This document shows positions 26,401 to 54,052 of a stretch of 64,000 nt of DNA, piece by piece (within the stretch, counting starts at the first letter, position 1; every line of letters starts with the position of its first letter). Both the position numbers and the translations under genes were made by a program. Source of the stretch: Styela clava (taxonomy: Eukaryota); contig NC_135259.1 in NCBI RefSeq assembly GCF_964204865.1, positions 19,840,001 through 19,904,000 of the forward strand. The letters are read 5' to 3'. The notes under the pieces were generated by a model. It saw only the letters and a list, made by a program, of their open reading frames with translations. It had not been told where the DNA came from and ran no database searches.

Positions 26401-28572
26401 AAGTGTAGTGCGAGACTTGACAAATTCTAAAAAGGGGGAGACCGTTAACTGATATCTCAGGTAAAAATCATCTTTATAATGTACAATTTCTTCAAAAATG
26501 ATTACGTCATCGCAAATTTATCTCCTGTGGCGTTTAATTCAAAAGAATATCTCACTAACTGTCTTGGTAAGGACCCAATAAATGTGAAAAATAATAAGTA
26601 TCAAGATTGCTGATTATTGAAATGTGACAATGATAAATTCAGTATTAGTTTTCGGCGTCATCCAACAAGTGCGCGGTTGATGCTGTTATTCTTTTTGATA
26701 TCTCAGAGTAGAATTTGCATGTCGAACACTGAAAATTTTTCACATAAATTGCATTTAATAACGGGTTCGGATTTTACTGAAATACTTCAATATGTCCTAC
26801 CCACGCTGAATATTCCGTTGTGAATAATTTTGAGCGAACCATTATGGCGTAACAAGCTAAAATTATACATTATTGCGTCAAACGTCACGATGCGGTTAAC
26901 CAGTTAATTTTACCCGGTTAACGGGTTAAAGGGTTTTTCCTGAATTTCCCAGCCCTAATAGCGATACATTTGTTTGAAAATGACTTATTCTGAGTCATCA
27001 ATTGAAACAAGTGGTTAGACATTGTTACTATGTTACCGTTAAAAAGCTTTGCAAGCACAAGAAGACTAGAGGGTCAAATAAGGTTTAAAACATGACTAAT
27101 AGTTTCAGATATTCCTATACGACGCTTATTCAAACCGTCTGCTCCAAACACGGTTGTATAGGCGTAGCGAGGAAGAGGTCATGTCCGGAATTTTTTTTTG
27201 CGGCATTTGCAATAAGACATAAATTCATACGCTTTTTCCAACCGCGATTTTGCTCTATTGTTGCAGAATTTACTGAAAATCGAACGTTTCCTGGCTTAAT
27301 ATTAATAATCCTCTCAAATGAACCAAACGAGATAGATATATGCCTGAGTTAACTTCGACAGCAAAGTAAGTCTGTAGAACGGTTCTTCAAGATATTGTTA
27401 GACAATATCAGTGGCTACAAAAACGTTTCAGTAATAAATCAGGCATGTGTTGGACTTCAAAGATAAAAATTTTCAAACTGTTGTATTCAATATTATGAAC
27501 AAATCGGCTGTTTTTGGGGATCTCTATTAAAAACGAATGTGAATAAAAAATTATTTACCAGCTCAGGGTGGTATATCAAGCAAGCATTGTGGTATTTTCA
27601 CTCCCATATTCAGTCAAAAATCTATTTGAATTGGTAAGCTTTCTTTTCAAACTCAGGTTTACAAAATAATAACTGCAGATTGATTGATCACCGGATTTTA
27701 CCAAATTTGGGATATAGCAGGGTAATTACTAACTTTTCTGACATATAGGCAACTTTTTTTGTAATACTGTTTAAGATGGTAGCAAAAAACACCTGGCAGG
27801 AATTATATTGTTCAGACATAACATTAATTTTCAGTTATCAGGCATAAACCAACCTAGGATAATAAATTCCTCATTTGATTTTTAGTTTTCTATGAAGCCT
27901 ATTTTGTTATCAAATATATTCCCGACTAAAAAAAAGAAAGCCAGCAGTTAACAATTTAGACTAGCCCAGTATATTATTCAACTTTGCTAGTTGCCTCAGC
28001 TAGCAATATTACTAGTAATTTCAGTGACATTAGTGATGTAACAATATGTCAAAAGATTTATCTGGTTATTTTTTATGGCGAAACAACACCACAGATAATG
28101 AAGCGGCGGGCCACATGTGGCCCACGGGCCTGGCTTTGGACCAACCAGTACTAGCTAATGTCTCTCAACTCAGATTTTGAGCCATGTCTCAACATTTTTC
28201 GCTCCTTCGTACCAATATAAACTTTGGATAAACGACGAGAGCTTATGTTACGACTCGAAAGTAATTAATGGTTGATTTCATGGAGGCCTGTTCAAAACGG
28301 ATGCAAATTGAAAATTATTTACTAGCTAATATTTTTCATCTCATCCATAAGTCTTGCTGCACACTAACTCAAATGTATTTATGTAACGTTTCGTCTGAAC
28401 GGGATCAGACTTCTTCAGACAAGCATTTTTCAGAAAATGCATTTTTTAAATTTCAGATTTCATGCCATATCTTAATATTTTTCGTGCCGTCGTTCGATAT
28501 TGACTGTTCATATTACATCAGTGGGAAATTATAGTAACAGTGTATAATTCCTAGTGGAAAAAAAGAGAACAC

Positions 28573-31500
28573 ATGACAATGACGGCGAAAGTGGAAACTA
28601 TCTTGATTGTATTAATACTTGTGGTTTTCTGTCTTAAACAAGGTAATGAGAAGTTTATTTTTTCACCATATACTGAGTATTGAAGTTATTTAATTCACAT
28701 GTACTGGCATTAATTATAAAACTCAATTTCGTTCGTTAACTTTAGAATTAACTGGTGGAAAACCATGATTTGTTCACCGCAATTATCTACAGGTAGAATA
28801 CATATATATTTACATAATTTCTAATAGTTTAAGCGGCGATTTTGTCCTCCAAAAATGAATAACTGCTGTCCTAACGTTATTCCTGAATTTTGCTAAGATT
28901 TTAAGTCGAAATCACAATTATGTGCCGGCGAAAGGTCCATGGGCATTTTCGTTGAACTCTTCCAAATCAAAATAAGCCACTAAAAAGCCATCTTAATTTT
29001 TTTATTCAAATGTTCTCTGAATCCTATGCTATTCGTTATTCACAATTTCCGTTTTATTTACATTAAATATAAACACTTTTTTTGTCACCCTCCTATCAGT
29101 TAAGGTCTTCCCGCACCGGTCCATATATTTGAGCATTGCTCTCTATTTCGATAATTAAATCCGAACCGGAAAGTATTACGCCCTCAGATACCAATATATA
29201 ACTTCTTTCCTCAAGATCAAATATTACACCGCAGTCAAATATAAAAAAAGTGGCGTTTTGTATGACAATATTGATCAAATAAAGGCATTGAGTCGTTTGA
29301 TAAACTATTCTGTGTTTTTTAAGCTGTTAAATACGTGACCCGTGTCATACATATGATAAAGCCAAGAATTTATAACAACAAAAATCAGGATATTATTTCA
29401 CATATATATAAAGTCATATAATCCATAACATTTATGTATAGTTCGATCATGCTCTTTTGTTGCTATTTTGATTTAAATTGCGAATGTCGCTCGAACGTGT
29501 GTGTTCATAGTGACTATTTCAAAAGATACTTGGTTGCAGGAATGTCTGGAACCGTGGAAAGCAAGTGTTATCTTTCTGAGGAAGAGAGAAGACCAGAGGG
29601 CCAAAGTGGCAAATTTCGGATAACCGCTTTTCCCGAAGAATTCCCAAAGACGTGCATCTGGGAACCACAGTTCAATGCCTCGTCAAGCTACTTTTTGCGT
29701 ATATGTGGGCGGCAATTGCGAGACGTGCAATGCCCTACGACTAACTGTACAATAACGCCAGTAGAATCAATACATGACGGTAAGTAAATGTAAACGCCTA
29801 ATCTTGATAAAATTGCGTCGTTTTGAATTTATAGGGTTCCAAAAGTTCTAACAGCTCTACCTGCGAGCCCTACAGTAAATGACCCAAGAAAGAAATTTTT
29901 GAAAATTAACGTCGATGCGACTCGACTCGTCACACGGGTTTCGCTAGTACAGACCAGGGTTTCGCAGGTTCACATTTAAATTGAAGAGTCTACGTCAGGT
30001 GTGTGCAACCTGCGGCACACAGAGAAAATTGTGCGGCCCGTGAAGAAGTGCCAATTTTAAATGGCCTGCGAAATGATTTTTCAATTCAGTTTAATCTAGT
30101 ACGTGCGAGTAATTCTAATCCCTCTGCGTCGAAAAGCCTGTACCCTGAGTCCAATTTATTATCTATGCCTATGACGTTACAATGTCTCAACAGCTAACTT
30201 GTGCGAAGCGAACAACACATGTCATAAAATCAATAATCGAAACTTTTGTGTCTATAACTACTAGGAAGGCCTATCTTAAATACAGGTGCCGCCCGCGATT
30301 TCACCCAGTTATTTGTTTCTGGCCCTACTGTAATAAAGGTTGCACAACTCTGGGCTACGTTATTGTTCTTATTTTCTCAGATATAATCAATATAATATAT
30401 TGAACCTGTCGTTAGTGAATTCGATTCAAAAGAGTCTTCAAATATTGAAACTCTTTCTCCTATTCGCTGGTAGTTCAGGTTCTCCTCTTCCGCAAGTCGA
30501 TTAGTTTGGGTGAGGGCGTATGAAAAAATTTCATTTTATTATTTGAAAACAACATGTACATATTGATCGTTTGGTAAATTGGATTGATGAAAAAAAACGC
30601 ATTGAATTTTTTTTTTTATTGTATCGGTTCCTCCAGACATGGAATCCATCACCCAGTTAGTACGCTGAGCGTCCAAACACAAATTCAAAAACATGTTTTA
30701 GCAATTGATAACTAGGAAAAACTTTTCATACGTACAAATTGCATTGCAAATATATGACTTCAATACACAAAATCATAGGTTTCATCTCGACCCTTGGCGA
30801 ACAGAAAAAAAAACAAGATGGCGGCAGTTCGAAATTTTCGTCGACCGATCTTTTCAGCAAACTTAGTGTTTAGTTGGCAGCCTGGACTTTACCGCTACCG
30901 ATGCGCGACTTTCGTGTCCATATGTTTGAGAATTTCTCACTTGTTGCAGGTTCCGCAGCAGGTTCCAGTGTTGATCCAACTTGTTTTGTTTTAACAACTG
31001 ACGACTGTTATGTGCCGGGCTCCGGAAACCGGAAAATGGTTTCCTCTTTGCCTACGAGTATAAAATTAACTATGAAAATAGATCTTGGCATTGAATCATT
31101 TAAGTACAGTTATTCAAAATGCGACAATGAAGGTAAAACAAAATTAAACTTGTTTTTCATAGCACTAAGATTGAAAAATTTATTTTCAGGTTTCGATAAT
31201 CTAGAACTTTTTCCAAGCCTATCTTGTGATCTCAGTCTTCGTAATTATTATTTATATCTAATGAAGTTTTTCATGAGTCGGTGGGTAACGGCAGCAGTGC
31301 TTTAACTATAATTACCGTTTCTTTCAATCAGATAGTATAACCCTGGATGTCGCTGCTCTAACCAGATCTGTTTACGCGCGGCTTCCATTTCCAAAAGACT
31401 GTACAATTATCTTTTAGTTTCGAATATTGTACATGATTGATTTTCACTGATAGGAAAAAAATAAACTTGGCTGGGAGCTACTTAACGGCCATCTCACTGA

Positions 31501-32500
31501 TTTATATAACAGGGCCAGAACCACCAACTACCCAAGTGCAGTCAACCTATGAGGCGACGAGCATGCCTCAACCGACGAATTATATTCAAAATACTCGTGA
31601 TTCAACAAAAAGTGTACCAAGCACTCCCATCCCCATTTCAGCATCAACTCCGCCGGAAACACACTGGTCCGATACAACTACGTACAATCTTTCTGTGACG
31701 ACTCACACTTCTCAGCAAGGCAGTAATACTTTGATTAGCACGATACTTCCAATTGTAATCGCCGTAGTCGTGGCCGCATTGCTGGGAGGACTTCTGTTTA
31801 TTTGGTGTCGCTACAGGCAAGTACATGATAACACATTATTTTGAATAACTTGATCACAGGTGCTTATGCAGTTTGTTGAGGGAAATAACTTAGACACGTA
31901 GAACCAAGTTTATTCTTCGTCCTGCTCTAGGGAAACCATTCCCGAAGTCAGGTTTGCAAATTGCTTTCTACAGTTGGGTTCGGAGTCGCATTTAAAAGCT
32001 TCCAGGATAGCTATGCCTGCGGAGTTCGGCATTACAAATAATGTGTAATGATCGTCGAAACGCCGACTAACGTTACTGTAAACAAATATTTATTTCCCCG
32101 CAGCGGCATATCCAATAAAATAAATAAATAATTTGAAGGTATTAGTCGTTTTAATAAGACATTAGATTGATTAGAACCTGGTGCAAATGGTTGAGCATTT
32201 GTAGCAGAAATTGATTTCATCAAACTAATGAAAAATAATAAATCGCAAATGGACCAACATGTATGTATTTCTAAATTCTTCAACAATAATCACGATTAAC
32301 AACACGTAATTGAATACTTAATTTTTAGGAAGAAAAAACAAAAATCGTCAGTTGGAAGTGAACAAGCTACTCATAGAACAGGCGATGAAAGACACATGAC
32401 TGAAAATGTGATTTACGAGAGTTCTTCTCCACACACAAATGATAATCAACCTGCAGCAATGATGGTTGATAATATCATTTATGGGCAGACGATCGTGTAA
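28573..32500 (+). CDS. Receptor-1: uncharacterised type I single-pass membrane protein (signal peptide, Cys-rich CUB-like ectodomain, S/T stalk, TM, Tyr-motif tail), 322 aa
   Basis: Exons 28573-28642 (MTMTAKVETILIVLILVVFCLKQ), 29540-29779, 30950-31132, 31513-31816 (S/T-rich + TM ILPIVIAVVVAALLGGLLFIWC), 32329-32500 (ENVIYESS...DNIIYGQTIV*). Total 969 nt, in frame. Intron 4 is GC-AG. Every exon has a counterpart in the paralog at 37.9-41.7 kb. Confidence 0.88.
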
Positions 32501-33911
32501 TACTTAGAAAGACAGGCAATAAAAACTGAAACTTGCCTTTGAGCCAAACACAGTTATTTAGAACAGTGGTTATCAAACGGTTAGGGGACATAAAGCTAGT
32601 TAAAAATAAAACTTGTTAGATTCAATCTTGCCCGCCTTGTTTTGGATATTCACATTTCTTTATTTTGGATATTTACGTTTAGTATATTTAAGTTCCATCC
32701 ACGTATTTTCAACTTGTTTTTCTTATTCGTAATTTCTTATGAAACTCTGTAACAAATTAATCTCTATTTATCTATTAACAGAAAGTATATATGAATTACC
32801 AAAAGTTTCACTGATTTCGCTTTCCTGGGAAATATGAATTATGGCTGTGCCTTCATTTTAGATATCGCTCTTTGTCGCCTCATTGTGGTGCATTATAATT
32901 GTGCAAGTTTATTTCTTGTATGCGCCCTTTCGGGTTTTTGTCGAGTTAAGTGACGAAGTCTATTATTATCCTGTTATATTATTGATTTCCCGCGCAGTTG
33001 ATATTGTATTTTTATTACGCAAACAATTTTGTGGCAAATTTGATTCCATATATATTTTTAGGATTTTGATTGTTCACCGCCTGCATAAAATGAACTTCCT
33101 TTGCGAGACTTATTTGAAAGTCGACCTCGCCTATTTACGCAAACTAGTATGTCCCGTTGACAACATAGTAGTGAGAACTTATATACTTAGAAAGACAGGC
33201 AATAAAAACTAAAGCTTGCCGTTGAGCCAAACATAGTTACTTAGAACAGTGTTTCTCAAACGGTTAGGGGACGTAAAGCTAATTAAAAATAAAAGTTTTG
33301 TTGGATTCGATCTTGCCCGCCTTGTTTTGGATATTTCCATTTTTTTTATTTTGAATTTTTACGTTTCATTTTCAACGTGTTTTTCAAATAAAACATACTT
33401 TAAGTATAGCATATACCCTAAGTTTAGTATATTTAAGTTCCATCAACTTGTTTTTTTTATTCGTAATTTCTTATGAAACTCTGTAACAAATTAATCTCTA
33501 TTTATCTATTAACAGGAAGTATATATGAATTACCAAAAGTTTCACTGATTTCGCTTTCCTGGGAAATGTGAATAATGGCTGTGCCTTAATTTTAGTTATC
33601 GCTCTTTGTCGCCTCATTGTGGTGCATTATAATTGTGCAAGTTTATCTCTTGTATGCGCCCTTTCGAATTTTTGTCGAGTTAAGTGACGAGGTCTATTAT
33701 TATCCTGTTATATTATTGATTTCCCGTGCAGTTGATATTGTATTTTAATCACGCAAACAATTTTGTGGCAAATTTGATTCCATATAATTGTTTAGGATTT
33801 TTGGCGTTCACCGCTTGCATAAAGTGAACTTCCTTTGCGAGACCTATTTGAAAGTCGACTCTGCCTATTACGAAACTAGTATGTCCCGTTGATGACATAG
33901 TAGTGAGAACT
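32501..33911 (+). repeat. Tandem duplication (about 680 and 730 bp) starting immediately after the Receptor-1 stop codon
   Basis: Copy 1 is 32501-33179 and copy 2 is 33184-33911; both start TACTTAGAAAGACAGGCAATAAAAACT and end ACATAGTAGTGAGAACT, and are highly similar throughout. Confidence 0.92.
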
Positions 33912-34500
33912 CGTCGCCGTAATTTTGCATTAGATGAAAGGCAATAAGTCAGTAAGTAGTTTATTTTATCAAAAATCGAAAGTACACAGCAGCGTCACCC
34001 GTGAGGGAGTGATTCTAACAAATCATACTGAGAAAGCAATTATAGCGTTCTATGCACTTTTTTTGAACCGTATGCTAGTTCTACGGGTCGATGTATTTGG
34101 CAAATGATGCAGTGGTTTAAATACATATCAATATCTTTAAATAATATCGTTGCATTATTAGATATTTAATTTTAGAAATTAAGCTTAAATAATTAATCCG
34201 TATTTGTGATACAAATGATTGTGATTTGTACCAAAGTACCAAAGTTTCAGGAATCTTAAGACGCTTCACATAAAATTTATGTTCTCTCTACAGTTTGTTC
34301 CAAATGACCCGGTTTTTGGGTACTCCCGAAGTATGTGAACCAGTCTTAACTCTAAGCAAATTATGAGTGCAAAAGTGCTTCGCAGTCCAAAAAAAGTGCG
34401 AAAGAGCTTTTGCCGATTTTAACAAGTTAGGTGCCCCAGCTTTTGTTTTAACTCATTTAAAACAGCATAAATCCTCGAAAAAGCGCTCCCTCCGTTAACC

Positions 34501-34690
34501 AAGATGGCGGACACCGGAACGTAGTATGTGTACCAGGTTAGGGTTAGGCCATAATTTTAAGTACAAATACTACGGGAGTCACTTCGCTAGTCTCCGAACT
34601 CGTAATAGAACTAAAATTGGAAAAACACATACTACGTTCCGTTGTCCGCCATCTTGGTACGCATACTTCAGGACCAGGAGTACCCCAAAT
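34501..34690. mobile_element. Dispersed MITE-like family J containing GGTTAGGGTTAGG
   Basis: Shared motifs GTATGTGTACC, TACTACGGGAGT and CCGAACTCGTAATAGAAC; related copies at ~39525-39735, 50420-50540, 56526-56740, 59111-59253 and 63124-63342. Confidence 0.7.
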
Positions 34691-36482
34691 TGTTTTACCT
34701 GAGCCGTGGACAACAACACGACTAGGGGTCGAAATTTAGTAGTTGTTGTTCGTTGAATTAACTAAAAATGCTGCATTTGACGCATGCCAATATTTCTGTT
34801 TTATCATCGTACCAGACATGAATTGTCTTGACCAAGTTTCCGCTACAATTTCCCGACGGGTAACTATAACAATATAGATACCAATCATGGGAATTTTTAC
34901 CAGTTTAATTACCTATTCCTAGGAACTCTTTGCAATATTCACAACACGACTTTGCTATATAACTCCAAGCTATTGAATAAGAAATACATTAGCGTAATGT
35001 CAAAAACTACCATATTGATTCATAACGCATCATATCCCTTCTGTGTCCCGAGCGAAAGCAGGAATCCGTCTTTTACCACAGTGTCGCATTGTTTGGAATA
35101 AAAAAGATTAAATCGGGCTGTACAGCGACAGAACCTCATAGATAGATGGACGCCATAATTTTTGTTTCGCATCGATAGATGGAGATTTGATCATGTGTAC
35201 TGGTTTATCGAGGAAAGCATGAATTGGTGCCACTTTGATATGCGATATTACACAAACGCTGAGATCGAATACCAAAGTAGCACCAATAAATTAATTCTTG
35301 TGTGATGTCACATTGTTTCGAATACTAGAAATCGGTGCTCTTATTACGTACTGTAGTTTGCGTCTAATAAACGGATACTTGCTCCTATATTAATTTTCGC
35401 GGTAATATTTTTGACTTGATGATTAAACGAGTACTTGAAAAATTGGTCAGATGTATTAGTTCAGTATCCGCTGCTATTACACGATTTCCATGCACCTGCC
35501 AGAAATTATAGGAAGACTCGCTTTACAACTATAGCATCTCATGGATAGTTTTTGAACCAGGGGCCAAATATTTTGCCCACCTAGTCTGTCTGGCTATGTA
35601 AGGGTGACGTAAACAGTTACATTTTATGAGCAATATTTACAGTGTTACAGAGTAAAGATTGAAAACAATATGCCTCGTGCAAAAACTGAATTTAACCGCA
35701 ATTTCAACAGATTTCATGGGTTATTTTTAGCTGAAACATTGAAATTTAGTTTCAGTTTGGTTGCGGCAGCATCAGGCGGGCTAGATTGAATTACCCAACG
35801 GGTCGGATTTGGCCCGCGGGCGTACTTTGCCCATGTTTGTAGTTGGACACTCTCATTTAAAACGTTATTTTCTTTTTGTTTGTATTGATAAATTGGACGA
35901 ATAGATGTGAATTTGGTCAGGCGCACTGGTTTAGTATCATTATGCTCTCTATAATACGATATATATGCACTTGCCAGAAATCATAGGAATTGATAGAATA
36001 CAGTGTATCAATATTATAACACTCGCTTTTTATAATACCATTTTACACACTACCATTTTGAAAGAATTGTTTGAAAGAGCAGATCGAAATTTGATTGGGT
36101 GCACTGGTTAGCAAAACATTTGGCAATGTGTAACTGTAGACATAGCTTATTTAGAGTCATCCATTAACGCGAGCGGTTAGATATCGTTAATATGTTAGCC
36201 TGTGTGCGTTATATCCGCTTATGAAAGATTTGTAAGCGCAGATAGTTCAGGAAGAGTAACAAAACGTCAAATAGGGTTTGAAGCAGGAATTCTGTAGCTG
36301 GAGTGCACAAACCCCCCAGGGAATTAATTTTGAATAAAAATACTTGATTTTTTATTCAATTATTGATTTAAATTACGAACCGTAATTTGTAAGAACATCC
36401 GTCTAACCATGTGTGATTGTTAGCCTATCAGTGATAGATGATGCATGCCTGATAAAATTCGTGATTTTCAATTTTCCGTGTG

Positions 36483-36699
36483 CAGAGGCGTATGTAGGGT
36501 GTGGCAGGCATGGCCAGGGGCGCCGTTTGGACGGGGGCGCAAAAACAGATAAAAGTTTCAATTGTAGAATGTTTCGATGAAATAAATTCAAATTGTAAAT
36601 AATTTAAAATTCGTATTTTTAGTTAAACAATGCCACACAAGTATCTAAAATTGATGCTCGATGATCAAGGGCGCGCAATTTTACGTAGATACGCCACTG
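36483..36699. mobile_element. MITE family C
   Basis: Homologous to 6488-6753; TSD TCCGTGTG/CCCGTGTG (7/8 match); short derivative at 58401-58452. Confidence 0.85.
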
Positions 36700-37675
36700 C
36701 CCGTGTGATTGTTTAATCATCTTTTCATTGCAATATCACACTATGCTTTTATGAAACACTGGTATGCGTTTTATTGTATAATTTGGGCCCAAGCTCAATA
36801 TTGGTTTCAGTTTCAAAAATAAAAAGGAATCCACGTTAACATTAAGCACCCCCTTGGCGTAAGGGCCTTACACGTAGAAAATTGTAGCAATTATCCGCTA
36901 TAAAACAACGAAACAAACTAAACCACACATCCACCTTCAGTAAGTAAGCTACCGGTACGCTACGATAATATACTAATTAATAATGTTCGTGTAATATGCT
37001 GGCTGGCTGAACGCCAAAGTGGGGATTTTGGGTGACCGGTCGGGTCGCCGGGAGAAGACGTTGAAAAGTGGGACAGTCCCGCCTAAAACCGGGCATATGT
37101 TAAGCCTAGATATAAGAGGCCATTGATCTTAAACAATATGTAAAAAGATACCAATATTCGGAAGGACCGGAATTTTACCGATTCGGCGTTGCCCCCCGCA
37201 CCCAATTTATTTCAGCCTATGAGTGTCATGTCACGCGCCAGGGTGATTGCTTTAAATATACAATGGGTGTGTAAGGATTGAATGCCTAACTACGGAATGA
37301 ACCACTGTTTAATATTTTCTTGGATTTAAATTTTTAAGCATAACAGATTCGTTTTGTTGGAACTTCACACTCCTCGAACAACACTGTAGTCGGAGTTCTA
37401 CTTTAACAGAAATTGATCCAGGCTTGTTATAATTGTTTCCAAACGTGATTTTGCCTTCTAAGAGACGGGAACTGAATTTGGAGTCCAAATATTTAACAAC
37501 TCAAAATCGTGTCATGTGTCAGAATTCAAAGATAGAAATATTTGAACTGCAGTGAGTGCTGTTGTCCAGTACGTATGAAAGATGGCAGCTTTCAAAGAGC
37601 AGCATTCAAAGTGAACTCGAATCAAAAATTATTTATAATTCCCAATTTTATGAGTTTGAAGAGCGAAATCTCATG

Positions 37676-37852
37676 CAGGGTGGGCCAGGAGTAACAGTTA
37701 TGTAACTATTAAATAATAAATTAATTTAACAGTAATGTTAATCTACTTCTAACCCACCCTGGTATATTACAATACGGAATAAATGTTACGATAGGAAGCA
37801 ATTTTTTTATTAGATTTTATATATAAGATAGAACTACTTCTGGTCCACCCTG
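37676..37852. mobile_element. Tc1/mariner-like MITE (CAGGGTGG...CCACCCTG-TA) just upstream of Receptor-2
   Basis: Termini CAGGGTGGGCCAGGAGTA / TACTTCTGGTCCACCCTG followed by TA. Confidence 0.6.
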
Positions 37853-37933
37853 TAAAATCGCAGTGTGTACTTATATAGGTAGTTCTATCTTATATATAAA
37901 ATCTAGTTGAAAAATTATGAACGCATCACTGTG

Positions 37934-40900
37934 ATGGCTACTAAAGTAAAAATTATGTTCATATTCTTGATACTTGTGATCTACAGTCTTAAACAAGGTA
38001 AACCAGTCAGTCTATTTCTTCGTTTTAAAGTTAATTAATCTAATTACTATATAAAGTTTCATGCACTCGCATAAATTATAGGACACAATTTCGTTCGGTA
38101 ACTTTTGAATTCACTGCGGAGAAACCGTGCGTTGTTGCCCGCAACTAAATTCCGCGTGAATACATGAAAACGTACACATATTTTTAATAGTAACACCCAG
38201 GCGTTCAACCAGTGATTTTGTTCTTATGAAAGGGGGATGATTATGCTTCACTAATGTTATTCCTGAATTTTGCTAAGATTTAAGTTAAAGTTCGTTACAC
38301 TGTTCCAAAACAACTTTTTTTACAAAGTTTGTGAATTAATGTAACGCGATGTTGGAGAAGCGAATTTTACTACGTACGGAGAGATTCGAAAACCTTCATA
38401 AACTTATTAGATATTTGCTACTCGTTATTCACAAAAAAATCGTTTAATTTTAATCAAAAAAGGACACTTTTTTCATCACGCTCTTCCGACGATATTTTCT
38501 GTGAGCTGGGGTCTCAGCTAGGACCTTATCGCACGGGTACCTATGCGCGATTTTCGTGTCTATATAAACGAGCATTTCTCTCTATTTCGATAATGAAATC
38601 AAAAGCGGAAGTGAGGCTGGGCACATCGAATATCAAATTATTCAAATTAATTTGGACGAAAATTTGGAATTATCGCCGTCTAGTTTTTTTTGTCCGCCAA
38701 AGGCCGATTTGAAACCCTCAACTTTTATATTGAAGCCATATTTTTAAAAGTCAATTCTGACGAGAGGCCCATAATATCTGATTCCAATTGTGGAAGTAGT
38801 GTTGAACGTGTAATACTGGAAATATTTCAAAGAGGAAATGTTTGTTTGCAGGAATTTCTGGAAACGTAAGAAGTAAGTGTCATCTTTCTGAAAATGAAAG
38901 AAAACCAAAGGGCAAAAGTGGCATGTTTCGGATAAACACGCTTAAAGAATTTCCAAAGACGTGCACTTGGGAAACACAATTCAACGCCTCGTCCGGATAT
39001 TCCTTGCGTATTTGTGGTTTGTGTGTGAACGTGAAATACAACGTAACTGATTGTCATTTAACACCAAAAGCAGATCCAGGTAAGAAAACTTAAGTACCCA
39101 ATGTAGATAAAATTAAATTCGTTTTTGCCTGTTTATTGAGGTTTCAACTACATCGACTCCAAGACATTTATCAAACCATCCAAGGTTTATGTGAACTTTT
39201 GAAAATAAATTCAAAGTCAACTTCAGACTTTGTAATTGAGATTCCGGACCCGCTGTTTAATGCCTAATTAACTGTTTGAATTACAAGTTGATTTTTGTTC
39301 GCCTTAAACTCTAGACGACTGTAACAAATGGGTACCACAGCTGACAACTAGCGATATATTTGGCGTTTCGAAAGTAATGTACTAGATTTATGTTCTTAAC
39401 CTGTTCTTCAAATTTTTAATCCCGTCTCTTCTATTCGGTGATCGCTTAGGTCTTCTCCACCGGAAATTGATTTGATCAAGTTAGGGTTTGTAACATTGCT
39501 TGAGGCAAGCGTATGAAAAAAACGGTGTTCCAGAAGTATGTGTACCAGGATGGGGGTAACTAATTTTGTTCGCCTACTTTACATCAAGTTGTTTAAAGGG
39601 ACGGAAGCCTTTGGACGGGGGATATATTCAATTAGCTAACACAGACAGTCTCCGAACTCGTAATAGAACTAAAATATAGAAAATCGAAATAAAATTATGG
39701 CCTAATCTTAACTCGGTCCACATACTACGGGAGTAACAAAAATCTTGTTTTCATCATTTGTAAACATGGATCGCTTGCTTAATGTCGTTGGTGTGATTGC
39801 TGTTTCTTTTTCCTGCATTTCAAATATACAGTTCTTGAAGATGAATGGAGTCACTAAAGAGCTTTTTTTAATTTTCGGAGACCCGATATTTTGCTCCAAG
39901 TTTTGATTGCCATTCTATTCACGTATTTTCAACGTGTTTTCTTATATAAAACATACTTTTGCCTTACTATCTGTTATTTATAGCTTATTGCCAGCTAGTT
40001 ATTTTTGAGGTGGGACGCGAGACTTGACAATTTCTAAAAATGGGGCGCGGCTTGAAAAGTTTGAGAAGCACTGCATTAGACTCTAATTATTTGAGAATTG
40101 CGATCTTGTTTCAGGTTGCGATGATGATTCCTTTTGCTTTGTTTTCACGACTGGATGTTTCTCCAGCAGTCATGTGGGCGTGGTTGACCGGATAAAAGTT
40201 TCGTCTTTGCCGAAGAATATAAGTTTAACTATGTATGAATATATCGATATTGAGGCAATAAATTACAGTTATTCAAAATGCGACACTGAAGGTAAAAATT
40301 AAATTTATTTCTCATAGCACTAAGATTAAAGAATTTATTTTTGGATTTCAATAATCTAAAACTTTCTCGCCTCGTCTATCTCGTGATCTGATGCTCTGTA
40401 ATAAATATTTATAGCTAGTAAGCAATGTTTCATAAGTCGGCAAAAGCACACCATACTCGCCTACAATAACAGTAGTTGTGTAACTAAAATTCCTGATATT
40501 TCCAATACATATAAGAGCCTTGAGTGTTACAGCTGGACACCCAGATTTGATTCCGGCGCGGCGGTGTGGCTTATCGTGCAAAGCGTTAGGGGTACGCTTG
40601 ACACCGCACTTCTGTTTACTCTGCATGGGTTTGCAGGTTCGATTCCCATGCGGTGATACCGTAGTTATGTGTGAGAGGATTGCTGGACTCCACGTCGCCG
40701 TAGGGTGGTTCACGTAAGCGCTGGTCGGGGACGGCTTCGTCCACCATCAGGTCCACGCTTCGAAAAACAAATAACTAACTAATACCATATCCGACATGGA
40801 ATGGTCCCTATCCCCGCGGCTTCGCTTGCGCAGTATAACGGTGTACTATTCTCTCTATTCCAAAATTTGTATTTGATTGACTTTTTACTGCATGGAAAAA

Positions 40901-41671
40901 ACTTGGCATGACTCGCAGCTTCTCAACGGTTGTTTTAACTATTTACATAATTAACTGGGCCAGAACCACAAACTACTCAAGTGCAATTAACCTATGAGAC
41001 AACGAGCGCGCCCTAATACGAAGCAACGGATTATATTCAAAATGCACATGGTTCAACAAGAAGTAAACCGAGCACAAATATATACGTTCCAGGGCCAACT
41101 TCGCCGAAAACACACTGGACCGATACAGCTACAAACGCTTATAACATGACGACTCACACCCACACTTCTCAGGGCAAAAATGCTTCGCTGGGCACAATAC
41201 TCCCAATTGTAATTGCCGTGGTCGTAGCCGTATTGCTGGGAGGACTTTTGTTCGTTTGGTGCCGCTTCAGGCAAGTAGAAAAATTATTTAGATTAACTTG
41301 ATCACAGGCTCCCATGTAATTATGTTGGGTGAAATATCTTCAATGAAAGTGCCTCAAGTTCAAATCTCAACACTGCGCAGCTCGAGAGATATATCCCCAA
41401 GATCAGGGTCGCAAAATCAGTTCCCGTCATATTGATAAACAGACTTCTGGAGCACCCATACTCCTACAATTCCAACGTAATTAAATACTTTATTTTTAGG
41501 AAGAAAATACAAAATTTGTCAGCCAAAAGTACACCAAGCCCAGAGAGAACAGATGGTGAAAACACCATGACCGAAAATGTAATCTACGAGAGTTCGTTTC
41601 CACACACAAATGATAATGAACCTGCAGCAATGCTGGTTGACAATATCATTTATGGACAGACGGTTGTGTAA
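37934..41671 (+). CDS. Receptor-2: paralog of Receptor-1, about 272 aa if the downstream exon-4 acceptor is used
   Basis: Exons 37934-37997, 38852-39079, 40115-40291, 41093-41270, 41500-41671 (ENVIYESS...DNIIYGQTVV*). The ancestral exon-4 acceptor is AG->TG at 40956-40957 and an in-frame TAA lies at 41014-41016; an in-frame acceptor ttccag|GG at 41092/41093 bypasses both. Could alternatively be a pseudogene. Confidence 0.75.
40558..40820 (+). mobile_element. tRNA-derived SINE in Receptor-2 intron 3
   Basis: A-box-like TGGCTTATCGTG and B-box GGTTCGATTCC; absent from the matching intron of Receptor-1. Confidence 0.75.
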
Positions 41672-44229: not shown

Positions 44230-44380
44230 ATTAATCTTATCAGATAAGAATACAGTCGTTTATCTAAAATCTAGAGTCGTAACTCTAACTCTATTTTTAT
44301 CTATTAATAATACTGACGTTCCATTAGCTTTATCGACTAAATGGCATTGATAAGTAAACATACCCATATAAATACACCAG
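44230..44380 (+). promoter_or_regulatory. Putative Not proximal promoter (TATA, Fox and GATA motifs)
   Basis: TATAAATA at 44367-44374; TAAGTAAACA (forkhead-type) at ~44351-44360; palindromic CTTATCAGATAAG at ~44236-44248; further TTTATC/GATAA motifs nearby. Confidence 0.45.
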
Positions 44381-44433
44381 TTATTCTGCTACATTTCATT
44401 ACAATTTGCAAATACAATATCAAGCTTTACAAG

Positions 44434-45426
44434 ATGATTTCCTACCGCCATCCTTACCAAGCGCTGTCAAATGCTCAATGGACGCCGTTTATTCGTTTCA
44501 ATTACACAGGCGGTTCAGATTTAGAAAAAGTTACAATAAATAAGAGAAAATTTTCATCAGATGAAGGTTCGGATTTTATGCAAGCTGCAGTTGTAAATAA
44601 AGAGAGACAAAGTGCCGAAATTTTCGACTCTGTCAAGAATCCCGAACAAATGGCAAAATTTAACAACCGAGGAAGGAAAACGAAAACTACTGTTTTTACT
44701 ATAGATGCATTACTGGGACATTCGACCGAAAGTCCAAGCAAAAAAAGAAAAGTTCAATTTACACAGACAACAAAAAGCAAGGATGATTCAATTGATTCGG
44801 GTGTCTCATCCTCTGGAGAAAACGACGAATCGATTATTGCTAGTGCGGATGCAAATGACAGTGGAATTTGTGACAATGATTCACGGCAAGAACCGGATCA
44901 AATTAAGTTTGTGACATCAGACTTACCTCAACCCAAAGTAAGAAGTAATCGGCAATTACCGCCTCCGGAAACATACAATCGTTTATATATGCCTATCAAC
45001 GATGCATATCATTTATATCCCGGATTAAACAAAGTTGTGCAGCAAAATTGGATGCATCACCAACAATATGCGATACCGTATGCACCGATCGAGACAATGG
45101 CTTTCGTTGGGCAATGTAATAATATTCAATCAAATGTATCTTATTCACCGAATCTTAGACCTCAAAAAACACAAATGACTAAACGAGCAAGAACGGTATT
45201 CACTCAAAAGCAACTAGGACGTTTAGAAGCTGAATTCAACAATCAGCAATACATGGTTGGAAATGAAAGGCGAGCACTTGCTAAGAAGCTCAGACTCACA
45301 GATGCTCAAGTTAAAGTTTGGTTTCAAAATAGAAGAATTAAGTACAGGAATGACAAGAAGCGTGAACCAGTGGAAGAAACCAACAAACTAGACGTTCCCA
45401 AACGCGAAGCAATCGAAAAATGCTAA
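44434..45426 (+). CDS. Not: Not/Noto-class (notochord) homeobox transcription factor, single coding exon
   Basis: Homeodomain 45178-45357 [57 protein letters not shown]; QQYMVG.ER and [12 protein letters not shown] are Not-class signatures. eh1 motif FTIDALLG at 44695-44718. The ORF opens at 44341, but a TATA at 44367 favours the ATG at 44434. Confidence 0.88.
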
Positions 45427-52600: not shown

Positions 52601-52895
52601 TTTCCATCTAAAATTTGTATGTTTCAAACCTCACTTGAGGTTATGTTTGCTCTATAATCTGGTCTGGTTCTATAATCAGTTTTTATCAATTACTTTATCG
52701 GGTATTATGCTGGTTATGGAGTCGAAATAAACTTATACATATTATCATATGATATTATCATATACCTGTTTTCGAATATTATCTAGTTTAACAATATTCT
52801 AAAACTTGATAAGTACTCGGTCAAAAACTTAATATTGGTGCATTATCATTTTAGTTTATAAGTTTTAATATCACACTCATCTGTCTAAGAAAAAT

Positions 52896-54052
52896 ATGGA
52901 AGATTCCGGCAAAAAAGCGAGACTTTTCATCAAGCCTACAGACTCTGATTACGTGAGACTAGCAAAGCAAGGGGGAGAAAAGGATTTGTTAGTTTCGCAA
53001 GATATTGTAAAGTCCGAAGCAGCAAAACCTTACTCAAAATGTGAATGGTTCGACCATATTCATAATGAGGAAGAGGATGCCAGAAATAGAAGGTGATCAT
53101 TTTATTAAAACCTCTTATTACCCTACATCGGTTCACTTGATTATTATTTTGTGACATGGCGGTTTCTATGAAACGGATTGTTATATTTGGTGAATGGAAA
53201 AGCCGCTCTTTTAGCGATAGGCATAAATTCATTCTGTGGTAGAAATTTCAAATATAAAGACATCGAGCAACAATACTGATACCTGAATATTTACTGCTGT
53301 TTTTACCATTTTTGCTAAATTGTGTCGGTATAAATTTCATGCACGACAAAAAAAAATATCTGAACTTGTCGACGCATCGTGCCAAGCAATAGGTATATGC
53401 TTGCTATATCAATGGGAGTTATATATTTAAAAATGCCTGGATTAAGCACTAAAATCAACTACCGTATATATTTGCATAGATAACTTTTTTTTTCTTTTTG
53501 TAGGGCTTAATATAATCAAAATATGTTTATCGACACCCGTGAGCGATAATAAGTGCATGTACGCAAGCGCAGACCATATGATTTCCATGAATAACCAACT
53601 CGCTACAAACCTGTATATCATTGTTCTGACTTGGTGGCGATTTGCACTTATGTCGAGCGGATATTTTATTTTTTAAATGTACGGACAAAATTGTGACCTA
53701 TCTGCGAGTATGTACGGTACGCCTCATATTTTATTCAACTACTTCATATAATTTACTGGCCGTGAAAGTATTTGTAGAGATGACATACATTTTCAGTCTA
53801 ATACCACAAACTAACTGATACATCTCTTACAGGACCAGTAATCAGGTTGCGGATAAGAAAGTCCATGATGCACAGGAGAACGACTCAACTCAGCAAACAG
53901 CTCGTGAAGAAGGGAATAAAATAAAAGAAAAATATACAAGAGGGGGTGCCCCATTTCACACTGATAATATGTCTGTTTGGGAACGCAAGGCAAAGGCCCC
54001 AGAAACACCAGAGCAAAGAGCTGCTCGCCAGGCGAGAAACCCAATTTACTGA
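52896..54052 (+). CDS. C7orf57: C7orf57-like protein, 2 coding exons, 138 aa
   Basis: Exons 52896-53092 and 53833-54052 (phase 2, GT-AG, 417 nt). Motifs IKPTDSDYVRLAKQGGEKDLL, PYS..EWFDH and APFHTDNMSVWER resemble, from memory, C7orf57 blocks (IKETDSEYVKLAKQGG.PDLL; GPF..D..TVWQR). Long T-rich downstream region is consistent with a 3' UTR. Confidence 0.75.

What the first reader, a model, noticed from the sequence alone, without database searches (positions are those of the whole stretch)
28573..41671. Unrecognised type I receptor family: variable CUB-like ectodomain, nearly invariant signalling tail
Seen: the last 34 aa are 30/34 identical between paralogs (MTENVIYESS.PHTNDN.PAAM.VDNIIYGQT.V*). 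The 8-9-Cys ectodomain is much more divergent, with indels clustered at the exon 2/3 junction (RQLRDVQCPTTNCTITPVESIHDGSAAGSSVDPTC vs LCVNVKYNVTDCHLTPKADPGCDDDSFC). Known: NxxY is a PTB/SH2-docking or endocytic motif, and C-terminal T-x-V is a class I PDZ ligand. Inference: C...SGxFRI...EFPKTCxW recalls the CUB N-terminal pattern (C..G.I.SP.YP..YP.N..C.W), so this may be a highly divergent single-CUB signalling receptor.
Basis: partly seen in the sequence, partly recalled or inferred. Interest (0 to 1): 0.7.

Follow-up and report, generated by a model that had tools for sequence, protein, structure and literature searches.

The report
Sea-squirt CUB-like receptors with Dok-docking tails
Two neighbouring, spliced sea-squirt genes encode cell-surface proteins with a conserved inner tail whose two tyrosine sites closely resemble a site in the animal's own Dok signalling adaptor, so they likely signal by recruiting Dok, and they likely belong to a scattered, undescribed family of receptors with a degenerate CUB-type outer domain.

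Summary
The window is Styela clava. Two tandem 5-exon genes (LOC120346446, 322 aa; LOC120345380, 272 aa) encode type I membrane proteins, and spliced contigs support both. Gene B has lost its old exon-4 acceptor and has a stop behind it, but splices in frame past both and is intact with a shorter stalk. The tail is 30/34 identical through purifying selection (dN/dS 0.11), not conversion. The ectodomain is only moderately divergent (55%, dN/dS 0.49); the juxtamembrane stretch is the most variable part. Both tail tyrosines sit in NxxY motifs almost identical to the PH-PTB linker motif of the genome's own Dok adaptor, the kind of site Dok PTB domains bind in mammals. The second motif also ends at least 16 other CUB-type receptor genes on six contigs with the same exon plan. 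AlphaFold failed, and the direct CUB signal of this pair is weak, so CUB is likely but not shown. Best reading: kinase-less receptors working like CD200R (phosphotyrosine to Dok), with unknown ligand. I found nothing in print, but this scan has already noted similar ascidian families.

The parts
28573..28642 (+). Gene A exon 1 coding part: signal peptide (transcript contigs start at 28456/28457)
29540..29779 (+). Gene A exon 2: N-terminal half of the Cys-rich, likely CUB-type ectodomain
30950..31132 (+). Gene A exon 3: C-terminal half of the ectodomain, ending in the family-type Phi-x-Y-x-Y-x-x-C and a phase-1 donor
31513..31816 (+). Gene A exon 4: Ser/Thr-rich stalk (77 aa, 39% S+T) and transmembrane helix (31743-31808); GC donor, phase 2
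32329..32500 (+). Gene A exon 5: cytoplasmic tail; variable juxtamembrane part, then the conserved last 34 aa
32396..32419 (+). Gene A tail motif 1 MTENVIYE (Tyr295), closest to the Dok linker motif LTDNVIYQ
32462..32485 (+). Gene A tail motif 2 MVDNIIYG (Tyr317), shared in type with many other S. clava receptor tails
32489..32497 (+). Gene A C-terminal T-I-V, possible class I PDZ ligand (untested)
   Evidence: consensus [S/T]-x-Phi in PMC9006456
37934..37997 (+). Gene B exon 1 coding part: signal peptide
   Evidence: equals RefSeq P0004
38852..39079 (+). Gene B exon 2: N-terminal half of ectodomain
40115..40291 (+). Gene B exon 3: C-terminal half of ectodomain
40956..41092 (+). Former 5' part of gene B exon 4, now intron: acceptor reads TG instead of AG (40956-57), in-frame TAA at 41014-41016, 76% identical to gene A exon 4
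41093..41270 (+). Gene B exon 4 as spliced: short stalk (35 aa) and transmembrane helix (41197-41262); GC donor, phase 2
   Evidence: (joints 40289-41091 cut +2 and 41268-41498)
41500..41671 (+). Gene B exon 5: cytoplasmic tail with motif 1 (41567-41590), motif 2 (41633-41656) and C-terminal T-V-V

Best explanation
These are two intact, spliced, kinase-less single-pass receptors whose conserved tail likely works as a double phosphotyrosine dock for the PTB domain of the sea squirt's Dok adaptor, under an outer domain that is likely a degenerate CUB domain. Shown: gene structure, splicing, topology by hydropathy, purifying selection on TM and tail, and the near-identity of both tail motifs to the Dok linker motif. 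Inferred: a ligand (unknown) clusters the receptors through the ectodomain held out on a mucin stalk; a Src-family kinase would phosphorylate Tyr295 and Tyr317 (acid at -4, Ile at -1, Glu/Gly at +1; kinase preference recalled); the Dok PTB would bind N-x-I-pY as mammalian Dok PTBs bind Dok's own linker tyrosine; Dok would then be phosphorylated on its YxxP sites and recruit RasGAP/Nck-type effectors, damping Ras-MAPK as CD200R does. The pair is likely an outlying branch of a dispersed S. clava family of CUB-stalk-TM receptors that end in M-V-[DE]-N-x-L-Y.
For: Tail dN/dS is 0.11 (pN 0.05, pS 0.34), and pS does not differ from the ectodomain's 0.43 (p 0.46), so this is constraint, not conversion. 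S. clava has a PH+PTB Dok (best PDB match Dok1 PTB, E 5e-17) with linker motif LTDNVIYQ 10 residues before the PTB and two YxxP sites. The tail motifs score 32 and 26-28 against it. The best score was reached by 1 (A) and 0 (B) of 20000 shuffles, both scores together by 0, and by 0 (score 32) and 2 (score 26) of 62239 background 8-mers. T-[DE]-N-V-I-Y-[EQ] occurs 4 times in the 377-Mb genome: A, B, Dok and one apparently non-coding place; the control pattern occurs twice. Dok1 Y146 and Dok2 Y139 bind Dok PTB domains, and CD200R signals through NPxY-Dok2-RasGAP without an ITIM (PMC7915401; PMC13613202; passages). No ITIM or YxxPhi is in either tail. M-V-[DE]-N-x-Phi-Y has 39 hits against 15 for the control. 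7 of 7 such loci chosen for inspection have a TM exon upstream, and 4 C6 genes pass the Pfam CUB cut-off. The family's N-half profile finds cubilin (E 7e-14) and neuropilins. An exon-3 signature with a phase-1 donor picks 16 of 7695 frames: 14 in motif-led loci plus both window genes. Intron phases match. Atlas features point to CUB-clan clusters for both paralogs (0.85-0.86, leads only).
Against: No binding, phosphorylation, ligand, cell type or effect was measured. The Dok match was noticed after the fact, and its background was mostly ectodomain and non-coding frames, not receptor tails. The motifs lack the proline of NPxY and could serve other PTB or FERM proteins (talin-type, IRS-type and SNX17-type domains are also in the genome). 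A direct sequence link of this pair's ectodomain to the wider family is not significant: hhalign E 0.37 and 0.34; 28 and 11 of 1000 shuffles reach the exon-3 scores, and 31 and 874 of 1000 the whole-domain scores; iterative searches did not pull the exons in. The exon-3 signature was written with both sets in view. Against a S. clava CUB profile the pair scores 21, true CUBs 69-183 and Ig/fn3 controls up to 19. Both AlphaFold models had pLDDT 37.
Confidence: 0.5

Rival explanations
1. The tail is a trafficking address, not a signalling dock. Unphosphorylated NxxY binds SNX17 (or Dab/Numb-type adaptors) and T-x-V binds SNX27 or another PDZ scaffold, so the proteins are endocytic or recycled cargo receptors or surface mucins.
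For: SNX17 recognises NPxY/NxxY cargo and SNX27 binds [S/T]-x-Phi ends (PMC9006456 passages). Both motifs are conserved in A and B. A weak SNX17 FERM match exists in the genome (E 8e-4). Motif 2 has a hydrophobic residue at -5.
Against: This does not explain the 6-of-8-residue identity of motif 1 with Dok's linker site, or the multiplication of the motif up to five times in related tails. T-x-V is absent from the other motif-bearing tails whose end is printed.
Confidence: 0.25
2. The tail docks a different PTB/FERM protein (Shc, IRS/FRS2-type, talin or kindlin), giving activating or adhesion-linked output as in integrin beta tails or RET (both recalled).
For: Two NxxY motifs 22 residues apart recall the paired motifs of integrin beta tails. 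IRS-type and talin-type PTB folds are present in the genome (talin identity recalled).
Against: No proline at -2. The closest in-genome look-alike of motif 1 is in Dok itself.
Confidence: 0.15
3. The pair are rapidly diversifying self/non-self or pathogen-recognition receptors with a hypervariable ectodomain, like Botryllus FF/FcoR or Hydractinia Alr.
For: Tandem duplicates next to a cluster of membrane fibrinogen-domain genes; indels at the exon 2/3 junction. One RNA contig of B carries two replacement changes in exon 3 (depth 4, may be errors). The wider family is very divergent.
Against: Ectodomain dN/dS 0.49, with pN below pS (p 0.003). A's ectodomain is identical in the window, P0001 and the X6 contig. 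Only two close copies exist in the genome. No ITIM or hemITAM, unlike FcoR and Alr.
Confidence: 0.1

Closest known systems
CD200R1 (vertebrate inhibitory receptor; PMC7915401 and PMC13613202, passages)
   Same: Kinase-less type I receptor with a short tail, no ITIM, and a tyrosine in an N-x-x-Y motif that recruits Dok
   Different: CD200R has two Ig domains and NPxY; here one likely CUB domain, a mucin stalk, two proline-less N-x-I-Y motifs and a T-x-V end. No sequence homology found.
Dok1/Dok2 linker tyrosine (Y146/Y139) as PTB ligand (PMC7915401, passage)
   Same: The S. clava Dok has a linker tyrosine motif just before its PTB that is nearly identical to tail motif 1
   Different: That the S. 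clava linker is the counterpart of Y146 is inferred from position; the mammalian flanking sequence was not seen in a call.
CUB-domain receptors (cubilin, neuropilin; CDCP1, DCBLD and NETO recalled)
   Same: N-terminal C...G.F/I...P..F/YP...C.W pattern; the related family's profile finds cubilin and neuropilin CUBs
   Different: Single, strongly degenerate domain with 8-9 Cys and an extra Cys after the last strand; below every Pfam CUB-clan cut-off.
Botryllus FcoR/fester family (PMC12582321) and Hydractinia Alr (PMC9546547), passages
   Same: Clustered, divergent invertebrate type I receptors with tyrosine motifs in the tail
   Different: Those are Ig-superfamily receptors with ITIM/hemITAM/ITAM or YxxPhi motifs. 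NPxY, Dok and PTB occur 0 times in PMC12582321, and NPxY 0 times in PMC9546547.
S. clava CUB-stalk-TM genes with MV[DE]NxLY tails (found here: L133-L137, L152-L156, L159-L160, L175, L177, L178)
   Same: Ectodomain split over two exons, the same exon-3 end signature, phase-1 and phase-2 introns, stalk+TM exon, and the same class of tail motif
   Different: The ectodomain of this pair is not significantly linked to them by profile comparison.

Membership tests
CUB domain (PF00431 clan) | Profile match over the curated cut-off | tested here: not met
   No CUB-clan family listed at E<=10 for exons, whole proteins or ectodomains
CUB domain (PF00431 clan) | N-terminal C..G.I.SP.YP..Y....C.W motif | tested here: met
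   Weakly: hhalign 21.2 over 35 columns; 2 of 949 column and 16 of 821 block shuffles reach it; fn3 profile 15.9, Ig 11.6
CUB domain (PF00431 clan) | C-terminal half (D-Y-L-E-I..G, F-x-S-D, G-F-x-A-x-Y strands) | tested here: inconclusive
   No significant match (176 of 300 shuffles); only the terminal Phi-x-Y-x-Y strand resembles it
CUB domain (PF00431 clan) | Jelly-roll beta-sandwich fold | tested here: inconclusive
   AlphaFold pLDDT 37 twice; fold searches on that model give only generic sandwiches, Z<=4.5; Atlas models TM 0.42-0.43 to CUB proteins, under the bar
CD200R-type Dok-recruiting receptors | Two Ig domains binding CD200 | tested here: not met
   No Ig match; works-like claim only
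CD200R-type Dok-recruiting receptors | Tail tyrosine in N-x-x-Y, no ITIM, no kinase | tested here: met
   Two N-x-I-Y motifs, no ITIM or YxxPhi; proline of NPxY absent
CD200R-type Dok-recruiting receptors | Phosphorylation-dependent Dok binding and RasGAP-mediated inhibition | not testable with these tools
   Needs pull-down and cell assays; a Dok gene is present
ITIM/ITAM immune receptors (FcoR, Alr) | ITIM, ITAM, hemITAM or YxxPhi in the tail | tested here: not met
ITIM/ITAM immune receptors (FcoR, Alr) | High allelic polymorphism or positive selection of the ectodomain | tested here: inconclusive
   dN/dS 0.49 between paralogs; A unchanged in three sources; one low-depth B contig with two replacements; no population sample
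S. clava CUB-stalk-TM family with MV[DE]NxLY tails (undescribed) | Exon plan, intron phases and exon-3 end signature | tested here: met
   Phase-1 donor after the terminal Cys in 10 of 10 exons (2 of them ours); phase-2 donor after the TM in 8 of 10 (2 ours; 2 not found by the scan); signature
S. clava CUB-stalk-TM family with MV[DE]NxLY tails (undescribed) | Significant ectodomain sequence homology | tested here: inconclusive
   E 0.37 and 0.34; shuffle p 0.01-0.03 for exon 3 only
Class I PDZ ligands / SNX17 cargo | C-terminal [S/T]-x-Phi; Phi-x-N-x-x-Y | tested here: met
   Pattern only; binding not tested

The most novel reading that the evidence does not exclude
Ascidians have an undescribed, genome-wide family of single-CUB receptors that all signal by presenting copies of Dok's own oligomerisation site: an ITIM-free, CD200R-like checkpoint system built on CUB instead of Ig domains in the closest relatives of vertebrates. 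This pair is its most divergent branch, with stalk length retuned by a splice-acceptor shift.
Probability: 0.3. Interest if true: 0.7.

Novelty: new variant of a known kind. Interest (0 to 1): 0.47.

Why it matters
Tyrosine-based immune signalling in invertebrate chordates has been read mostly through ITIM and ITAM motifs. A large receptor class wired to Dok through PTB sites would add a third route and suggest that CD200R-type inhibition predates vertebrates or arose twice. The match to the species' own Dok linker gives one concrete, cheap binding test. The B gene also shows that a stop codon and a lost acceptor in genomic sequence need not mean a pseudogene. The ligand and cell type are unknown, and the pair itself is a two-gene, species-restricted branch.

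Tried and rejected
Gene B as pseudogene or secreted decoy: rejected; a spliced contig joins exon 3 to 41093, past the stop, and RefSeq P0004/P0005 agree. Gene conversion as the cause of the tail identity: rejected. More close paralogs: none in G000 or in 10 kb on either side; P0003 has no locus of its own in G000, so it is read as an allele of A. Homologs elsewhere: only P0001 and P0004; tail-only search 1 of 1 candidate; none in metagenome contigs; no informative PDB sequence match (5 weak TM/stalk hits at E 0.8-2.5; none). AlphaFold on the full-length and ectodomain two-sequence alignments failed, so the fold searches say nothing. Complex prediction of Dok PTB with the unphosphorylated tail: no answer, score 0.01 against a mark of 0.34, controls not folded; no evidence either way. 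Sequencing-run search: no RNA holder listed; the runs laid are RNA by guess only. Exon 2 against the family N-half profile: not significant (90 of 150 shuffles). The C17 hit of P0003 (E 0.007) is a stalk/TM composition match to a different protein. Literature: 0 papers hold the accessions; searches on ascidian CUB/NPxY receptors listed nothing on this family (listings only); one search found nothing and one unrelated paper on the Dok PTB consensus, which stays recalled. Three primary Dok/CD200R papers were not held. No supplements were read, so expression tables could mention these genes unseen.
Full report
Identity and gene models. The window lies in Styela clava (named protein hit; G000:C13:19840001-19904000). 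I built two five-exon genes on the + strand. Gene A (322 aa) is LOC120346446 and gene B (272 aa) is LOC120345380, both 'uncharacterized'. One 1222-nt contig of run X6 covers all five exons of A spliced, with no other letters. Intron 4 has a GC donor in both genes. The contig joints at 31814/32327 (X6, X1) and 41268/41498 (X1) fit that donor, whereas the RefSeq models P0002 and P0005 differ by one K-to-Q at this junction. Each protein has a hydrophobic N-terminus, a 135-141-residue domain with 8 or 9 cysteines, a Ser/Thr-rich stalk, one transmembrane helix and a 59-residue tail.

Gene B looked broken: the acceptor matching A's exon 4 reads TG, and a TAA follows at 41014. A contig of run X1 splices exon 3 to 41093, in frame and past the stop, giving exactly RefSeq P0004. 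B is therefore intact, with a stalk of 35 residues against 77 in A. The dropped piece is still 76% identical to A's exon.

Divergence by region (Nei-Gojobori on 267 aligned codons): ectodomain 72/131 identical, dN/dS 0.49; stalk 18/33, 0.53; TM 20/22, 0.08; juxtamembrane 10/25, 1.5 (interval of pN/pS 0.7-4.9); last 34 residues 30/34, 0.11. Synonymous divergence in the tail (0.34) does not differ from that in the ectodomain (0.43), so the tail is held by selection, not homogenised. The ectodomain is also under purifying selection (p 0.003). The presumed allele P0003 differs from the window's gene A at 7 of 141 residues, 5 of them juxtamembrane and none in TM or tail (the eighth listed difference is the RefSeq junction residue).

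Relatives by sequence. Only the two paralogs were found among 1.84 billion representatives and in word-based searches, and only two copies in G000. No Pfam family reaches its cut-off. No paper holds the accessions.

The CUB question. A profile of 22 S. clava CUB domains aligns to the N-terminal motif over 35 columns with score 21.2, reached by 2 of 949 column shuffles and 16 of 821 block shuffles. Real fn3 and Ig domains reach 16.9 (48 tested) and length-matched chimeras 18.9 (60 tested), while four left-out true CUBs score 69-183. The exon-3 half does not match. Atlas features list CUB-clan clusters first among named families for both proteins, at 0.86 and 0.85, which the tool calls leads only. 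AlphaFold failed twice (pLDDT 37), so fold searches are uninformative. Direct evidence for CUB is thus weak.

The tail. Both tyrosines sit in [ML]-x-[DE]-N-x-I-Y-[EG]; there is no ITIM or YxxPhi. The genome holds a single-frame PH+PTB adaptor closest to Dok1, whose linker reads LTDNVIYQ ten residues before the PTB. Mammalian Dok1 and Dok2 dimerise through PTB binding to Y146 and Y139, and CD200R inhibits through NPxY, Dok2 and RasGAP without an ITIM (PMC7915401, passages; PMC13613202, passages). The two tail motifs score 32 and 26-28 against the Dok linker. At most 1 of 20000 shuffles reached the first score and none reached both; 0 and 2 of 62239 background 8-mers reached the two scores. T-[DE]-N-V-I-Y-[EQ] occurs four times in the genome: genes A and B, Dok, and one short apparently non-coding frame; the control pattern occurs twice. 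This match was noticed after the fact and the pattern was written from both motifs, so it is a strong lead, not proof of binding.

A wider family. The pattern M-V-[DE]-N-x-Phi-Y has 39 hits against 15 for its control. Of the 30 hits returned as loci, many lie in last-exon-like frames; all 7 that I chose to extend upstream have a TM exon. In 47 fetched 10-kb stretches plus the two flanks and the window (7695 frames and as many reversed decoys), a profile of ten C-half exons finds 16 frames above the best decoy, 6 of them not seeded, on contigs C2, C3, C6, C13, C14 and C19. Four C6 genes pass the Pfam CUB cut-off. The family's N-half profile matches the CUB profile at 97% probability and finds cubilin, neuropilin and MASP CUBs in the PDB. 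Genes A and B share the exon plan, the intron phases and an exon-3 signature that, with a phase-1 donor, picks 16 of 7695 frames: 14 in motif-led loci and these two (written post hoc; the pattern alone hits 19 real and 7 decoy frames). Profile comparisons do not link their ectodomain to the family significantly. I put membership, and with it the CUB fold, at about 0.75-0.8.

Mechanism. Most likely these are kinase-less receptors in which ligand-driven clustering would let a Src-family kinase (preference recalled) phosphorylate two tyrosines that dock Dok, with RasGAP-type damping downstream (confidence 0.5). Rivals are a trafficking tail for SNX17/SNX27 (PMC9006456, passages; 0.25), docking of another PTB/FERM protein (0.15), and hypervariable allorecognition (0.1). 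Botryllus FcoR and Hydractinia Alr differ in fold and motif class (PMC12582321 and PMC9546547, passages).

Novelty. It works like CD200R but is not a member. My searches found no description in print (open-access listings only). Earlier notes of this scan describe similar CUB-stalk-TM receptors with tyrosine tails in other sea squirts and in this genome; these are unchecked and not independent support, and they lower the surprise. What is added here is the validated gene pair, the selection analysis, the Dok-linker match and the map of relatives on six contigs. Verdict: new variant of a known kind, interest 0.47.

Noticed in passing
window 1153-24442, minus strand; continues in L038: Tandem array of fibrinogen-domain genes. 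At least three have a type II membrane layout, with tyrosine motifs in the cytoplasmic N-terminus (YDNV/VYEM, NLYEI). The nearest starts about 4 kb upstream of gene A, head to head.
   Followed up: partly
window 44341-45423 +: Single open frame with a homeodomain (Pfam E 6e-21), 2.7 kb after gene B; it looks like a Not/Noto gene (recalled, not tested).
   Followed up: no
window 28441-28457: Contigs of two studies begin at 28456 and 28457, exactly at a T-rich AG acceptor-like site, hinting at a trans-spliced leader or an upstream exon; contigs cannot prove a start.
   Followed up: no
window 31817 and 41271: Conserved GC donor of intron 4 in both paralogs; the RefSeq models P0002 and P0005 differ by one K-to-Q here, consistent with a nearby GT donor that the contigs do not support.
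   Followed up: yes
window 32709-33742: 734-base tandem duplication (96% identical over 300 nt) just downstream of gene A.
   Followed up: no
window 37810-37905: Short inverted-repeat element just upstream of gene B's start codon, seen by eye.
   Followed up: no
window 52869-53093 +: Exon matching DUF5524 at the Pfam cut-off.
   Followed up: no
L090 1075-2382 (G000:C17:1391102): Dok1/2/3-like adaptor encoded in one uninterrupted frame, with a linker NxxY and two YxxP sites.
   Followed up: partly
L136, L152, L153, L155 (G000:C6:19.85-20.07 Mb): Cluster of Pfam-recognisable CUB receptors whose tails carry one to five copies of a roughly 31-residue repeat with V-x-N-V-L-Y-G, i.e. copy-number variation of the docking site.
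   Followed up: partly
L133 (G000:C13:19.71 Mb): A family member about 165 kb from gene A on the same contig; its C-half exon is clear, its N-half exon was not found.
   Followed up: partly
L037 1483-2547 and 4133-5494, minus strand (G000:C17:7.21 Mb): Two tandem single-exon type I membrane genes with an unassigned ectodomain (looks LamG-like, recalled), Thr-rich stalk and short tyrosine tail.
   Followed up: no
window 32330-32395 and P0003: The juxtamembrane stretch varies most both between paralogs (10/25 identical) and between presumed alleles (5 changes in 25), while TM and tail stay fixed; unexplained.
   Followed up: partly
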